This document shows, piece by piece, positions 2,897 to 6,315 of a DNA stretch of 64,000 bases. The translations under genes were made by a program, and so were the position numbers. Origin of the DNA: a virus. The stretch's first letter is position 1; every line of letters begins with the position of its first letter. Location of the stretch: positions 130,627 to 194,626 of IMG/VR virus record IMGVR_UViG_3300042453_004886. One strand, 5' to 3'. Below the pieces are notes generated by a model. The model made no database searches. It saw only the letters and a program-made list of their open reading frames with translations, and was not told the origin of the DNA.

Positions 2897-2980
2897 TGGC
2901 AAGTACCCGAGTGGTAGCAGGGGGCGGACTGTTAATCCGTTTGCGAAAGCACGTCGTCGGTTCGAATCCGACCTTGCCAG
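2897..2980 (+). tRNA. trnN: tRNA-Asn(GTT) with long variable arm
   Basis: Acceptor TGGCAAG/CTTGCCA, G73; anticodon arm GCGGA-CT GTT AA-TCCGT; T arm GTCGG-TTCGAAT-CCGAC; no encoded CCA. Confidence 0.9.
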
Positions 2981-3010
2981 CTTTAATCCCACAAATACAA
3001 ATCAACAGCT

Positions 3011-3745: not shown

Positions 3746-4049
3746 GGAGGTATAGCTCAACGGTCAGAGCAGTGGACTCATCAATTGGTGCGCTATCAGG
3801 GAAACTTGATAGAGGAACAGGGTGAATTCAGGGGAACCTAAAGCGCAAGCAACGGCAATCCTGAGCCAAGCTTTCGGTACACCGAAAGAAGGTGCAACGA
3901 CTAGTGGGTTTGAGTAAAGTCTCAAGTAATACCACCTCGAGCGCCCTGCACCCTAACGTAAAGTCGAGGGTGAAGAGATAGTCTAGCCCACAAGGAAACT
4001 TGTGATACGGCGAATCCATTGGTTTAGGGTTCGAATCCCTATGCCTCCA
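3746..4049 (+). tRNA. trnI: tRNA-Ile2(CAT) (elongator Met less likely), split by a group I intron; exons 3746-3781 and 4013-4049
   Basis: Joined exons fold: acceptor GGAGGTA/TGCCTCC, A73; anticodon arm GTGGA-CT CAT AA-TCCAT; T arm TAGGG-TTCGAAT-CCCTA. The AGAGCAG..GACTCATAATC..TTGGT context is typical of Ile2; fMet hallmarks are absent. Confidence 0.88.
3782..4012 (+). ncRNA. Group I intron (IC3-like), 231 nt, no ORF
   Basis: Exon ends in U and intron ends in G; P1 CAU/GUG; P GAATTCAGGGGAAC, Q AATCCTGAGCCAAG, R GTGCAACGACTAG, S GAAGAGATAGTCTA. Confidence 0.92.
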
Positions 4050-4055
4050 CTTTCC

Positions 4056-4130
4056 GCCCTAGTAATGGCCACGCCTTCTAAGCGATAGGTGCATAGTTGG
4101 ATAACGTAGGTTCGAGTCCTACCTGGGGCA
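4056..4130 (+). tRNA. Atypical tRNA-Arg(TCT)-like gene lacking a D arm (functional variant or pseudogene)
   Basis: Acceptor GCCCTAG/CTGGGGC, A73; T arm GTAGG-TTCGAGT-CCTAC; loop CT TCT AA closed by CGC/GCG. Only about 9 nt lie between the acceptor and the CGC stem. Confidence 0.6.
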
Positions 4131-4154: not shown

Positions 4155-4207
4155 AACCCGCCAAGGCTATGCTCGAAAGAGTATCCTCAAACCGGCGGGT
4201 TACTTTT
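4155..4207 (+). terminator. Long hairpin with inner GAAA stem and U-tract
   Basis: AACCCGCC...GGCGGGTT encloses ATGCTC-GAAA-GAGTAT, followed by ACTTTTT. Confidence 0.6.
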
Positions 4208-4473: not shown

Positions 4474-4545
4474 GCACTCGTAAGTTGTAGCTCCCTCTCT
4501 CACCCCGGACTTCTACAATATTGATTTTGAATTTTAGGAGTTAAC

Positions 4546-4860: not shown

Positions 4861-5328
4861 ATGGAAGATAACGTAAAAGTTTACGGTCCTTACACTAGAA
4901 GTGACGGCAGACAGCATGTTATCTTAGTGTCTGGTAGCCTTCGCCGAACCGTTTCCTACCCAAAATACCTAATGGAAAAACATTTAGGTAGGGAGCTAGA
5001 CCCAAATTTAGAGACAATTGATCACATTGACAGAGATTTTACTAACAACTCTTTAGAAAATTTAAGAGTTATACCCAGGTCTAAACATTCATGTGAAGAC
5101 CAGAAAAGAGTAAAACTTCTAACAGGAAACTGTTTAATGTGCAGTAAAGTAGTAGAAAACATTAAACCGTCTAAAGCTAGAAGAGACAAAAAAGCAGGAA
5201 AAGCTGGACCATTTTGTTCAAAACAATGCATAGGTAAATACGGATCATATCTTCAAAATAAGAAAGTTGAAAAATTTAATAATGACTTAGACACAACGTC
5301 AGAGTATTTTTATTTAGACAAAATTTGA
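4861..5328 (+). CDS. Free-standing HNH homing endonuclease with C-terminal Cys4 Zn-finger-like domain
   Basis: ETIDHIDRDFTNNSLENLRVIPRSKH (HNH motif); CLMC...FCSKQC. Confidence 0.9.
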   Translation: MEDNVKVYGPYTRSDGRQHVILVSGSLRRTVSYPKYLMEKHLGRELDPNLETIDHIDRDFTNNSLENLRVIPRSKHSCEDQKRVKLLTGNCLMCSKVVENIKPSKARRDKKAGKAGPFCSKQCIGKYGSYLQNKKVEKFNNDLDTTSEYFYLDKI

Positions 5329-5333
5329 TTTTA

Positions 5334-5617
5334 GCCCTCATGGTGAAATGGCAGACACTAGCGACTTTTAAATGAGCACTTATACAGAAATGTATATTTG
5401 AATGAACTCAAATTCGGTGAAAGCTTAACTGCCAACGCCGAGCCAAGCTGGATTTATCCAGAAGGTGTAGAGGCCAGACGGGTTCCATCTGACTGGAGTT
5501 TAACTCTAAAAGATGAAGGCATGGTCCAGACCACAAACGTTTTTACGGTAGCGAAAGCTATAGTGGTAAGAAAATCGCTTGCTTTTTAGCGTCCCGGTTC
5601 GAATCCGGGTGGGGGCA
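5334..5617 (+). tRNA. trnL: tRNA-Leu(TAA) split by a group I intron; exons 5334-5367 and 5571-5617
   Basis: Acceptor GCCCTCA/TGGGGGC, A73; anticodon arm AGCGA-CT T^AA AA-TCGCT; long variable region; T arm CCCGG-TTCGAAT-CCGGG. Confidence 0.92.
5368..5570 (+). ncRNA. Group I intron (IC3, trnL-type), 203 nt
   Basis: Inserted after U34; P1 CUU/GAG; P AATTCGGTGAAAGC, Q AACGCCGAGCCAAG, R GTAGAGGCCAG, S GAAGGCATGGTCC; terminal G. Confidence 0.92.
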
Positions 5618-5621
5618 CTGT

Positions 5622-5710
5622 GGAAGCGTGATGTACGGTGCATCGGACGTCTTATAAGCGTCAGCGCCCCAGATAAGGGCCGTGACTGGGTTCAACTCCC
5701 AGCGCTTCCA
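5622..5710 (+). tRNA. trnI: tRNA-Ile(TAT) with long variable arm
   Basis: Acceptor GGAAGCG/CGCTTCC, A73; anticodon arm GACGT-CT TAT AA-GCGTC; 23-nt variable region; T arm CTGGG-TTCAACT-CCCAG. Confidence 0.85.
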
Positions 5711-5725
5711 CCTCTTTGAGGTTTT

Positions 5726-5914
5726 ATGAAAATCATTATCGACAAAGAATTACTAAGCTATACAGGGGATCCAAGATACGAAATCCTGATTAAAAATGAC
5801 GAAGTCCTTGTATACGACTTGGCTTACAGCGATAATTCAGATAAATTTATAGTACACAGGCTGTACTTAGGCGGCAATGAATGCGACAGCAAAGATGGAT
5901 CCTATCCGGCCTGA
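5726..5914 (+). CDS. Hypothetical protein
   Basis: 62-aa ORF with GAGG RBS. Confidence 0.6.
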   Translation: MKIIIDKELLSYTGDPRYEILIKNDEVLVYDLAYSDNSDKFIVHRLYLGGNECDSKDGSYPA

Positions 5915-6315
5915 AAAGAGCTTTTGTCTCTCAACATCCGCATTACAAGATGTCAGCAATTATTACCAAGGGCGGGAGGGTTATCTCTATTGGGTTTAAC
6001 CGAGCGCCTTCTGGTTATTTAAAATCAAAACTATTTTGTGATTTTCATGGTGTTCACGCTGAAGTGGATGCCATATTAAACTGCTCAGATAAAGAAGATC
6101 TCAAGGGTGCAGAGATGTACGTGGTGGGTAGAAGACCTCGTACGGGTGCTTTGATTCTCAGCAGACCTTGTGAACTTTGTCAGAAATACGTAGAGAATTT
6201 TGGACTAAAAGCTATTTACTACCATGACTCCGATGGCAAAATAAAAGACCTCTACTCAAACGATGAAAACATAACGCATATTTGCAAAAGTCATTTAGAT
6301 AAAAAATCCAGCTAA
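5881..6315 (+). CDS. Zn-dependent cytidine/dCMP deaminase-family protein
   Basis: HAEVDAI and RPCELC (HxE...PCxxC) motifs. Confidence 0.88.
   Translation: MRQQRWILSGLKRAFVSQHPHYKMSAIITKGGRVISIGFNRAPSGYLKSKLFCDFHGVHAEVDAILNCSDKEDLKGAEMYVVGRRPRTGALILSRPCELCQKYVENFGLKAIYYHDSDGKIKDLYSNDENITHICKSHLDKKSS

What the first reader, a model, noticed from the sequence alone, without database searches (positions are those of the whole stretch)
3746..4049. Phage tRNA-Ile2(CAU) interrupted by a compact group I intron
Seen: a 231-nt ORF-less intron inserted immediately 3' of the CAT anticodon, with intact P, Q, R and S elements and a 3-bp P1 (CAU/GUG). Established: the same site and P1 are known from the Azoarcus tRNA-Ile intron, while phage group I introns are mostly in protein genes. 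tRNA finders would miss or split this gene. Inference: tRNA maturation depends on self-splicing, and the unspliced precursor lacks a cleavable anticodon loop.
Basis: partly seen in the sequence, partly recalled or inferred. Interest (0 to 1): 0.7.

Follow-up and report, generated by a model that had tools for sequence, protein, structure and literature searches.

The report
Self-splicing intron splitting phage tRNA-Ile
A 195-kb tailed phage carries a tRNA gene (anticodon CAU, most likely the AUA-reading isoleucine tRNA) cut in two by a 231-base self-splicing group I intron of the kind known from bacterial tRNA-Ile genes; this is ordinary biochemistry in a place (phage tRNA genes) where the review literature says no introns had been seen.

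Summary
The 5' exon is 3746-3781, the intron 3782-4012 (231 nt, no ORF) and the 3' exon 4013-4049. Rfam scores the intron at 108.7 bits (E 2.7e-27). The joined exons give a perfect 73-nt cloverleaf with anticodon CAU. The intron aligns end to end with 31 bacterial tRNA-Ile(CAU) introns and one viral intron. The group I fold is kept in 97.8% of pair cells, 32 pairs show compensatory changes, and several of those changes are private to this phage.

Ile2 is favoured over Met. The tRNA has A3-U70, it is not initiator-like, and it uses the 36/37 site that Ile-type genes use. It lacks C4-G69/C5-G68, so Ile2 is not proven.

The intron belongs to a larger subclass than the Azoarcus intron, with an extra hairpin domain between P7 and P3'. 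A second intron, of separate origin, splits tRNA-Leu(UAA) 1.6 kb downstream.

The case is not unique. A 2014 review states that all known phage introns lie in protein genes, and I found no later report. Verdict: real, a new member of a known kind, moderate interest. Splicing itself is untested.

The parts
3746..3781 (+). tRNA(CAU) 5' exon, positions 1-36: acceptor GGAGGUA, D arm, anticodon stem GUGGA, loop C32 U33 C34 A35 U36
   Evidence: Sequence. ARAGORN cloverleaf of the spliced product.
3782..4012 (+). Group I intron, 231 nt, without ORF, ending in omega-G4012
   Evidence: RF00028 at 108.7 bits. Alignment A1 and pair counts. MFE fold z -3.5.
3779..3790 (+). P1: exon C3779 A3780 U3781 plus intron C3782 paired with G3787 G3788 U3789 G3790. 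U3781-G3788 wobble at the 5' splice site. L1 is AAUU (3783-3786); A3784-U3786 could pair with A4013 A4014 U4015 as P10.
   Evidence: The four P1 pairs are invariant in 33 of 33 sequences. P10 is my inference from the sequence.
3793..3812 (+). P2, 8 bp, with GAAA tetraloop L2 (3801-3804)
   Evidence: All 7 counted pairs show compensatory changes in the family. Recovered by the MFE fold.
3818..3824 (+). P3 5' strand, paired with 3942-3948; carries two double changes private to this phage
   Evidence: Alignment columns 58/242 are A-U here (G-C in 32 others) and 61/239 are G-C here (A-U in 32 others).
3828..3864 (+). P4 (3828-3833/3859-3864), P5 (3837-3838/3854-3855), P5a with GCAA loop (3843-3850): elements P and Q
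   Evidence: P4 pairs are 100% kept. Coordinates.
3865..3893 (+). P6 (3865-3866/3892-3893) and P6a (3871-3877/3882-3888, loop UACA)
   Evidence: 6 of 7 P6a pairs have compensatory changes.
3899..3903 (+). P7 5' strand GACUA (element R), pseudoknotted with UAGUC 3979-3983 (element S); the expected guanosine-binding helix
   Evidence: All 5 pairs are invariant in 33 of 33 sequences. The role in G binding is established knowledge of group I introns, not tested here.
3904..3935 (+). Extra domain between P7 and P3' ('P7.1'): outer stem GUGG/CCAC (3904-3907/3932-3935), inner hairpin UUGAG/CUCAA (3910-3914/3921-3925), 3' internal loop UAAUA
   Evidence: Present in all 33 aligned introns with compensatory changes (bacterial CCUG/CAGG against GUGG/CCAC here and in L204).
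3942..3948 (+). P3 3' strand
3949..3972 (+). P8
3979..3983 (+). P7 3' strand UAGUC, preceded by J8/7 GAAGAGA
3989..4004 (+). P9, 6 bp, with GAAA tetraloop L9 (3995-3998)
   Evidence: 5 of 6 pairs have compensatory changes in the family.
4013..4049 (+). tRNA(CAU) 3' exon, positions 37-73: A37 A38, anticodon stem UCCAU, V loop, T arm, acceptor UGCCUCC, discriminator A
5334..5617 (+). Second split gene in the same tRNA island: tRNA-Leu(UAA), exons 5334-5367 and 5571-5617, group I intron 5368-5570 (203 nt) after U34. This intron is unrelated in sequence to the first.
   Evidence: RF00028 at 35.7 bits, below the gathering score. The spliced product is called tRNA-Leu(taa). No blast similarity to intron 1 and a separate place in the tree.

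Best explanation
The gene at 3746-4049 is a working phage tRNA gene whose anticodon loop is interrupted between U36 and A37 by a self-splicing group I ribozyme. In the transcript the last three exon bases, CAU, pair with the intron's guide GUG (P1, with a U-G wobble). The folded core (P3-P9, with GAAA loops L2 and L9 as tertiary clamps) binds a free guanosine in P7, and this guanosine attacks after U3781. The freed exon end then attacks after omega-G4012 and joins the exons into the loop CUCAUAA, which gives a 73-nt tRNA. The tRNA is most likely tRNA-Ile2: the host's TilS would convert C34 to lysidine so that it reads AUA, a codon this phage uses heavily. The intron carries no endonuclease gene. 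It is best read as a horizontally acquired, now fixed genetic passenger that persists because it splices itself out. It is not a purpose-built regulator. Shown here: the sequence, the fold, family membership, selection on the helices, and an intact tRNA after in-silico splicing. Inferred: catalysis, the Ile2 identity and the passenger status.
For: RF00028 scores 108.7 bits, E 2.7e-27. The spliced exons give a perfect cloverleaf. The intron aligns end to end with 31 bacterial tRNA-Ile(CAU) introns and viral L204. The splice-site columns CAU|C...G|AAUCC are invariant. On the canonical topology with the P3/P7 pseudoknot, 97.8% of cells are paired against 34-43% for slid partners, 32 of 62 pairs have double changes, and 0 of 500 shuffles reach the observed values. 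This phage has its own compensatory changes in P3, P6a and P7.1. Only one core junction differs from the family (J6/7), and that variant occurs in more than 116 other viral introns. The single-sequence MFE fold recovers the same helices, z -3.5. For Ile2: A3-U70, where Met and fMet have C3-G70 (PMC1635315); C11-G24 and U12-A23, which are not initiator features; an anticodon arm identical to bacterial Ile-type genes L245/L248/L293/L305/L311; and site 36/37, which is used by 47 bacterial Ile-type genes while initiator-type genes are split after U33. AUA makes up 26% of Ile codons, 14.9 per 1000. This is the only CAU tRNA in the genome. The record is a phage: tail, polymerase and helicase genes in a 194.6-kb IMG/VR record.
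Against: No splicing or expression data exist. C4-G69 and C5-G68, which are frequent in tRNA-Ile(CAT) and are the E. coli TilS determinants (my knowledge), are replaced by G4-C69 and G5-C68. The phage has no TilS, so the identity depends on an unknown host enzyme. A second AUA reader (anticodon UAU, 5622-5712) sits in the same island and would make an Ile2 partly redundant. No close relative, no second copy and no intron-less allele was found in IMG/VR or JGI metagenomes, so gain or mobility cannot be dated. Placement on the intron tree is unresolved.
Confidence: 0.8

Rival explanations
1. The intron is real, but the tRNA is an elongator tRNA-Met rather than tRNA-Ile2. C34 stays unmodified and the tRNA supplements AUG decoding.
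For: ARAGORN calls it tRNA-Met(cat), though it cannot tell Ile2 apart. G4-C69 and G5-C68 stand in place of the C4-G69 and C5-G68 that are very frequent in tRNA-Ile(CAT). The phage has no TilS. A separate UAU tRNA could already read AUA. G2-C71 and A73 fit MetRS (my knowledge).
Against: A3-U70 was never seen in Met or fMet genes of 234 genomes (PMC1635315). All 47 bacterial genes split at 36/37 have Ile-type acceptor stems. The anticodon arm is identical to Ile-type genes. Phages rarely need extra AUG decoders, whereas AUA is heavily used here.
Confidence: 0.22
2. The split gene is a dead relic. The intron no longer splices, or splices too poorly to matter, and the tRNA is not made.
For: No expression data. 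No sigma-70-type promoter in the simple scan. J6/7 differs from the bacterial family. The exon part of P1 is only 3 bp.
Against: All helices are intact with lineage-specific compensatory changes. All 33-way invariant core positions are kept. The exons give a flawless cloverleaf. The J6/7 variant is common among viral introns. A 3-bp exon part of P1 is shared by all 33 aligned family members. Earlier notes say the phage has its own RNA polymerases, so a missing sigma-70 promoter means little.
Confidence: 0.07
3. The intron is kept for a function beyond selfish persistence. It could gate tRNA supply by GTP or Mg level or by timing. It could destroy the target site of a tRNA-gene-specific homing endonuclease. 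It could keep the precursor out of reach of anticodon nucleases.
For: Two of the few tRNA genes in this phage are split. Split tRNAs are frequent in IMG/VR tRNA islands. An HNH homing-type endonuclease gene sits beside the tRNA-Leu gene. Endonucleases aimed at tRNA anticodon regions are known (Bonocora and Shub 2001, cited in PMC3984707).
Against: Nothing in the sequence distinguishes this from a neutral passenger. The mature tRNA has a normal, cleavable loop. The intron has no ORF. No intron-less or intron-plus sister alleles were found for comparison.
Confidence: 0.12

Closest known systems
[quoted passage not shown]
   Same: Same host gene type, same insertion point after U36, same 3-bp exon pairing CAU/GUG with a U-G wobble, GAAA-type L2 and L9 loops, same P4-P6 and P7 core sequences, no ORF.
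   Different: The ~204-nt class that I take to be Azoarcus-like (from my memory of that intron; CAU|AAAAUUUGUGCC...CACAAACCAG|; Burkholderiales- and Rhodocyclales-type hosts) lacks the 32-nt P7.1 domain. The window's intron belongs to the larger class (229-291 nt) found mostly in Gammaproteobacteria MAGs. It is encoded by a phage and flanked by a different acceptor stem.
Bacterial 'class A' tRNA-Ile(CAU) introns in Gammaproteobacteria, Verrucomicrobiales and other MAGs
   Same: Full-length homology at 65-70% identity, identical splice-site context, identical helix set including P7.1.
   Different: The window's copy sits on a long branch, has J6/7 AC instead of GA, a P7.1 outer stem GUGG/CCAC, and exons with G4-C69/G5-C68 instead of C4-G69/C5-G68.
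Cyanobacterial and plastid tRNA-Leu(UAA) intron and bacterial tRNA-fMet introns
   Same: Group I introns in tRNA anticodon loops. The second intron of this phage (5368-5570) sits at the tRNA-Leu site after U34.
   Different: Different sites: Leu 34/35, and initiator-type genes 33/34 in the loci seen here. Different sequence lineages from intron 1.
Phage group I introns in protein-coding genes (T4 td/nrdB/nrdD, Twort, Bastillevirinae; PMC3984707, PMC11878797)
   Same: Phage-borne self-splicing introns. The same ribozyme subclass, with P7.1 and the J6/7-P7 motif GAAGGUGCAACGACUA, occurs in viral contigs outside tRNA genes (L077, L078, L192).
   Different: Those introns interrupt protein genes and often carry homing endonuclease genes. 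This one interrupts a tRNA and has no ORF.

Membership tests
Group I intron (Rfam RF00028) | Covariance-model score above the curated gathering score | tested here: met
   108.7 bits against 50, full-length model match.
Group I intron (Rfam RF00028) | 5' splice site after a U that forms a U-G wobble in P1, and a 3'-terminal G | tested here: met
   U3781-G3788 and G4012. Both columns are invariant in 33 aligned introns.
Group I intron (Rfam RF00028) | Conserved core P3-P4-P6-P7-P8 with the P3/P7 pseudoknot, supported by covariation | tested here: met
   97.8% of cells paired, 32 pairs with double changes, 0 of 500 shuffles, slid controls 34-43%.
Group I intron (Rfam RF00028) | Guanosine-dependent self-splicing activity | not testable with these tools
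   Needs in vitro transcription and splicing, or RNA from infected cells.
Azoarcus-type IC3 tRNA-Ile(CAU) intron | Insertion between positions 36 and 37 of a tRNA(CAU) with exon pairing CAU/GUG | tested here: met
Azoarcus-type IC3 tRNA-Ile(CAU) intron | Compact ~205-nt architecture with no peripheral domain between P7 and P3' | tested here: not met
   A 32-nt P7.1 domain lies at 3904-3935. The intron groups with the larger class, not with the ~204-nt class.
Azoarcus-type IC3 tRNA-Ile(CAU) intron | Formal subgroup assignment (IC3) against a curated group I intron classification | not tested
   No such classifier or reference set is on hand. IC3 is inferred from likeness to tRNA introns.
tRNA-Ile2 (lysidine, anticodon CAU) | Position 3-70 is not C-G (G3/A3 or C70/T70 indicates Ile rather than Met or fMet) | tested here: met
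   A3-U70. Rule from PMC1635315.
tRNA-Ile2 (lysidine, anticodon CAU) | C4-G69 and C5-G68 in the acceptor stem (very frequent, not universal) | tested here: not met
   G4-C69 and G5-C68.
tRNA-Ile2 (lysidine, anticodon CAU) | Lacks initiator marks (A11-T24, G12-C23, unpaired 1-72, three G-C pairs in the anticodon stem) | tested here: met
   C11-G24, U12-A23, G1-C72, anticodon stem GUGGA/UCCAU.
tRNA-Ile2 (lysidine, anticodon CAU) | C34 converted to lysidine by TilS and charged by IleRS | not testable with these tools
   No TilS (PF01171) in the phage. The host is unknown.
Mobile group I intron with homing endonuclease | Endonuclease ORF inside the intron | tested here: not met
   No + strand ORF of 50 aa or more. 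The minus-strand ORFs have no Pfam hit. The nearest endonuclease gene (HNH_3, 4861-5328) is free-standing, beside tRNA-Leu.

The most novel reading that the evidence does not exclude
Phage tRNA islands are a main reservoir and vehicle of tRNA group I introns. Phage-borne split tRNA genes such as this one would be what moves these introns between distant bacteria and between tRNA and protein genes. That would explain the patchy, laterally transferred distribution of tRNA-Ile, tRNA-fMet and tRNA-Leu introns, for which I know of no proposed carrier. A bolder variant is that phages keep the intron because it shields the tRNA gene or its precursor from rival endonucleases.
Probability: 0.2. Interest if true: 0.7.

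Novelty: new member of a known kind. Interest (0 to 1): 0.5.

Why it matters
The 2014 review of bacterial group I introns states that all phage introns then known lie in protein-coding genes despite the many phage tRNA genes (PMC3984707). I found no later paper that changes this.

There are three practical consequences. First, standard tRNA finders undercount phage tRNAs, so decoding capacity, including AUA decoding and in other phages stop-codon suppression, is underestimated. Second, phages become a plausible carrier for the lateral spread of tRNA introns among bacteria. Third, the family offers compact natural ribozymes with an extra P7.1 domain for structural work.

For this single locus the biology is conventional.

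Tried and rejected
1. The 17-mer junction scan of IMG/VR gave one hit (L003). It is a chance match with no homology.

2. Exact scans for the 5' exon, the 3' exon, the intron-less junction and the intron-bearing junction in IMG/VR and JGI metagenomes found nothing. No sister alleles could be compared.

3. An alternative splice solution (U33|...G4009, anticodon GCG) passes the U/G rule and ARAGORN. I rejected it because homology fixes CAU|C and G|AAUCC as invariant columns.

4. BLAST of the spliced tRNA against annotated E. coli genomes and GenBank phages, meant to read off the isotype, hit Lys, Arg and Asn tRNAs generically. It was uninformative and I dropped it.

5. My first custom splice screen missed most bacterial cases because it assumed a 36-nt 5' exon. 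ARAGORN intron mode replaced it.

6. ARAGORN with a minimum intron length above zero returned nothing, which is a tool quirk. A positive control resolved it.

7. An intron phylogeny by FastTree suggested a sister relation to L204 and the bacterial class. The supported IQ-TREE analysis does not resolve the placement, so I claim no donor.

8. Host: four window proteins gave no Microcystis-phage hits. Ma-LMM01 has only a distant polymerase homologue and no group I intron. 224 spacers from Burkholderiales arrays with the phage's repeat gave no match.

Full report
**What is there**

The stretch 3746-4049 reads as a tRNA gene in two pieces. The 5' exon (3746-3781, 36 nt) runs from the acceptor strand GGAGGUA through the D arm and the anticodon-stem strand GUGGA to C32 U33 C34 A35 U36. 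The 3' exon (4013-4049, 37 nt) resumes with A37 A38, the stem strand UCCAU, a 5-nt variable loop, a canonical T arm, the acceptor strand UGCCUCC and discriminator A. CCA is not encoded. The 231 nt between them (3782-4012) end in G. Rfam's group I intron model matches 3770-4005 over its whole length at 108.7 bits (gathering score 50; E 2.7e-27).

ARAGORN in default mode and the Rfam tRNA model both miss the gene. In intron mode ARAGORN finds it, but with a misplaced intron and a wrong anticodon. Joining the exons in silico gives a flawless 73-nt cloverleaf with anticodon CAU.

**The genome**

The window is the last 64 kb of a 194,626-bp IMG/VR virus record that CheckV rates complete. The window encodes tail and tail-fibre proteins, a family-A-type DNA polymerase, a helicase and HNH endonucleases, so it is a tailed phage. 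Only two group I introns are detectable in the whole genome, and both lie in tRNA genes. The second is 1.6 kb downstream. It is tRNA-Leu(UAA), with exons 5334-5367 and 5571-5617 and a 203-nt intron after U34, and it splices in silico to an 82-nt class II tRNA. The two introns share no detectable sequence similarity and fall in different parts of an intron tree, so they were acquired separately.

**Structure and selection**

One pattern scan for 'CUCAU, 60-90 nt, GAGCCAAGC, 8-30 nt, AAGGUG' was run over GTDB genomes and over IMG/VR. ARAGORN intron mode was then applied to the hits. This produced 47 bacterial tRNA(CAU) genes split after U36 and about ten viral ones.

The window's intron aligns end to end with 31 of the bacterial introns and with one viral intron (L204) (alignment A1). 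The columns around both splice sites, CAU|C ... G|AAUCC, are invariant. This fixes the splice sites and excludes an alternative U33/G4009 solution that had passed simple rules.

I wrote the canonical group I topology with P7 as a pseudoknot. On it, 97.8% of 2041 pair cells are standard pairs, against 34-43% when partners are slid by 1-3 columns. 32 of 62 pairs have changes on both sides, and no shuffle out of 500 reaches any observed measure. P1 (C-G, A-U, U-G, C-G), P4, P6 and P7 never vary. P2, P5a, P6a, P8 and P9 covary.

The window's copy has its own compensatory changes. There are two in P3 (A-U where 32 others have G-C, and G-C where 32 others have A-U), two in P6a, and a fully exchanged outer stem in the extra domain. 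Of 146 columns conserved in at least 90% of the family, it departs at 29, mostly in these paired positions. The one core junction that differs (J6/7, AC for GA) is exactly the variant found in more than 116 other IMG/VR introns. A thermodynamic fold of the single sequence recovers P2-P6a, the extra domain, P8 and P9 on its own (-75.7 kcal/mol, z -3.5). I therefore take the ribozyme to be under selection to fold, although catalysis is untested.

**Anatomy in window coordinates**

- P1: 3779-3782 with 3787-3790. L1 AAUU could form a 3-bp P10 with A4013-U4015 (my inference).
- P2: 3793-3800 with 3805-3812, with a GAAA loop.
- P3: 3818-3824 with 3942-3948.
- P4: 3828-3833 with 3859-3864.
- P5/P5a: 3837-3855, with a GCAA loop.
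- P6/P6a: 3865-3893.
- P7: 3899-3903 with 3979-3983.
- Extra domain (here called P7.1): 3904-3935, a 32-nt hairpin between P7 and P3'.
- P8: 3949-3972.
- P9: 3989-4004, with a GAAA loop.
- Omega-G: 4012.

The P7.1 domain is shared by the whole 'class A' family. It distinguishes that family from a ~204-nt class (CAU|AAAAUUUGUGCC...CACAAACCAG|). That shorter class occurs in Burkholderiales- and Rhodocyclales-type genomes and in some viral contigs, and from my memory of the Azoarcus sequence I take it to be the Azoarcus type.

**Which tRNA**

Silva et al. (PMC1635315) found that Met and fMet genes carry C3-G70 and that A3 or T70 indicates tRNA-Ile(CAT). [quoted passage not shown] The window's tRNA has A3-U70, C11-G24, U12-A23 and a paired G1-C72. 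By these rules it is not an initiator and is Ile-type, but it has G4-C69 and G5-C68.

Two further points favour Ile2. All 47 bacterial genes split at 36/37 have G3, and 45 begin GGGCC, whereas the initiator-type genes in the same scan are split after U33. In addition, the anticodon arm with its flanks is identical to that of several bacterial Ile-type genes.

The phage uses AUA for 26% of its Ile codons (14.9 per 1000), and it also favours UUA, AAA and AGA. This matches its tRNA set. It has no other CAU tRNA and no TilS. I put Ile2 at roughly 70-75% and elongator Met at roughly 20-25%.

**How common, and where from**

The nearest relative is the intron of viral contig L204, at 73.8% identity over about 200 nt and 67% over core columns. 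Its contig shares nothing else with this phage. Bacterial class A introns follow at 65-70% identity.

The same ribozyme subclass also sits outside tRNA genes in viral contigs, for example just after a start codon in L192. A supported tree interleaves tRNA and non-tRNA contexts and leaves the window's intron on a long, unplaced branch. I therefore name no donor.

No second copy, no close relative and no intron-less allele of this gene exists in IMG/VR or the JGI metagenomes at exact-match level.

Split tRNA genes are frequent in viral contigs. About 49 are Leu(UAA)-type, 9-10 are CAU, and a few are Arg(UCU), Lys(UUU) or others. One 281-kb contig has three within 1.5 kb.

The notes of this scan list many earlier finds of intron-split phage tRNAs, including suppressor tRNAs, so this scan has seen the phenomenon before on other DNA. 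In the literature I could search, the 2014 review says that all phage introns observed to that date are in protein-coding genes despite many phage tRNA genes. Five searches and a 2025 survey of phage introns gave no report of a phage tRNA intron. Papers outside the library cannot be excluded.

**Mechanism and rivals**

The best reading is the standard two-step group I pathway acting on a pre-tRNA. The intact anticodon stem holds the exons together, as was shown for the Anabaena pre-tRNA intron (Zaug et al. 1993, cited). Host modification of C34 and A37 would follow. The intron has no ORF, and the only nearby endonuclease gene is the free-standing HNH gene beside tRNA-Leu. I therefore read the intron as a fixed passenger.

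The rivals are these: that the tRNA is Met; that the gene is dead; and that the intron serves regulation or protection. That remark is true by construction but unsupported as a function, because the mature tRNA has a normal loop.

**Host**

Earlier notes call this a relative of Microcystis phage Ma-LMM01. I could confirm only a distant polymerase homologue (28-38% identity) and found no intron in Ma-LMM01. A solitary CRISPR repeat in the tRNA island matches type II-C array repeats of Burkholderiales genomes at up to 35 of 36 bases, which hints at a betaproteobacterial host. No spacer link was found, and I did not search Cyanobacteria.

**Verdict**

This is a real, well-folded group I intron in a phage tRNA(CAU) gene that is probably tRNA-Ile2. 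It is a new member of a known family in an under-reported setting. Interest is moderate, because the mechanism is conventional and many similar cases exist in metagenomic phages.

Noticed in passing
window 4484-4519 (+): A solitary 36-nt CRISPR repeat lies in the gap between two small ORFs and is single-copy in the genome (Rfam CRISPR-DR34, 30.5 bits). Real arrays with nearly the same repeat (up to 35 of 36 identical) occur in 21 of 401 sampled Burkholderiales genomes; the repeat is of the Neisseria-like type II-C class. It is a candidate RNA anti-CRISPR (solitary repeat unit) and a host hint. 224 spacers from those arrays do not match the phage.
   Followed up: partly
window 4056-4130 (+): A tRNA-like element starts 6 nt after the split tRNA. 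It has a good acceptor stem and T arm (Rfam tRNA 28.5 bits, just under the cut-off) but no recognisable D arm or 5-bp anticodon stem. A CUUCUAA loop (anticodon UCU, Arg) on a 3-bp stem is possible. ARAGORN rejects it and its fold is no better than shuffles (z -0.8). It could be a relic, a processing signal or an odd tRNA.
   Followed up: partly
window 5620-5712 (+): A 91-nt tRNA with anticodon UAU has a selenocysteine-tRNA-like shape: an 8-9-bp acceptor stem, a 6-bp D stem with a tiny loop, and a long variable arm (fold z -3.4). It would be a second AUA reader of unusual build, directly after tRNA-Leu.
   Followed up: no
window 2897-2981 (+): An 85-nt tRNA with anticodon GUU (Asn) has a long variable arm, which is a class II shape not expected for tRNA-Asn.
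   Followed up: no
window 5881-6315 (+): A 144-aa cytidine/deoxycytidylate deaminase-family ORF (PF00383, E 3e-11) lies at the edge of the tRNA island. It could be a dCMP deaminase or a tRNA-editing deaminase.
   Followed up: no
L196 / L360-L362 (IMG/VR contig of 280,913 bp, about 212.9-214.4 kb): Three tRNA genes within 1.5 kb each carry a group I intron: Arg(UCU) after U34, a Leu gene, and a Lys(UUU)-like gene. RF00028 scores are 70.2, 62.6 and 49.2 bits.
   Followed up: partly
L315, L325, L258 (bacterial genomes, e.g. Nitrospira MAG): Initiator-type tRNA(CAU) genes (CGCGGGG..., GGG/CCC anticodon stem) carry group I introns after U33. This site differs from the 36/37 site of Ile-type genes, so the insertion site separates the two isotypes.
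   Followed up: partly
L077, L078, L192 (IMG/VR contigs): Introns of the same subclass as the window's, including the P7.1 domain and its GUAAUAC internal loop, lie outside tRNA genes. In L192 the intron lies about 55 nt after an apparent ribosome-binding site and start codon.
   Followed up: partly
window 4157-4200 (+): A long GC-rich hairpin followed by a T run lies after the two tRNA-like genes (chance-level hit to Rfam abiF RNA, 29.2 bits). It is probably the terminator of the small tRNA transcription unit.
   Followed up: no
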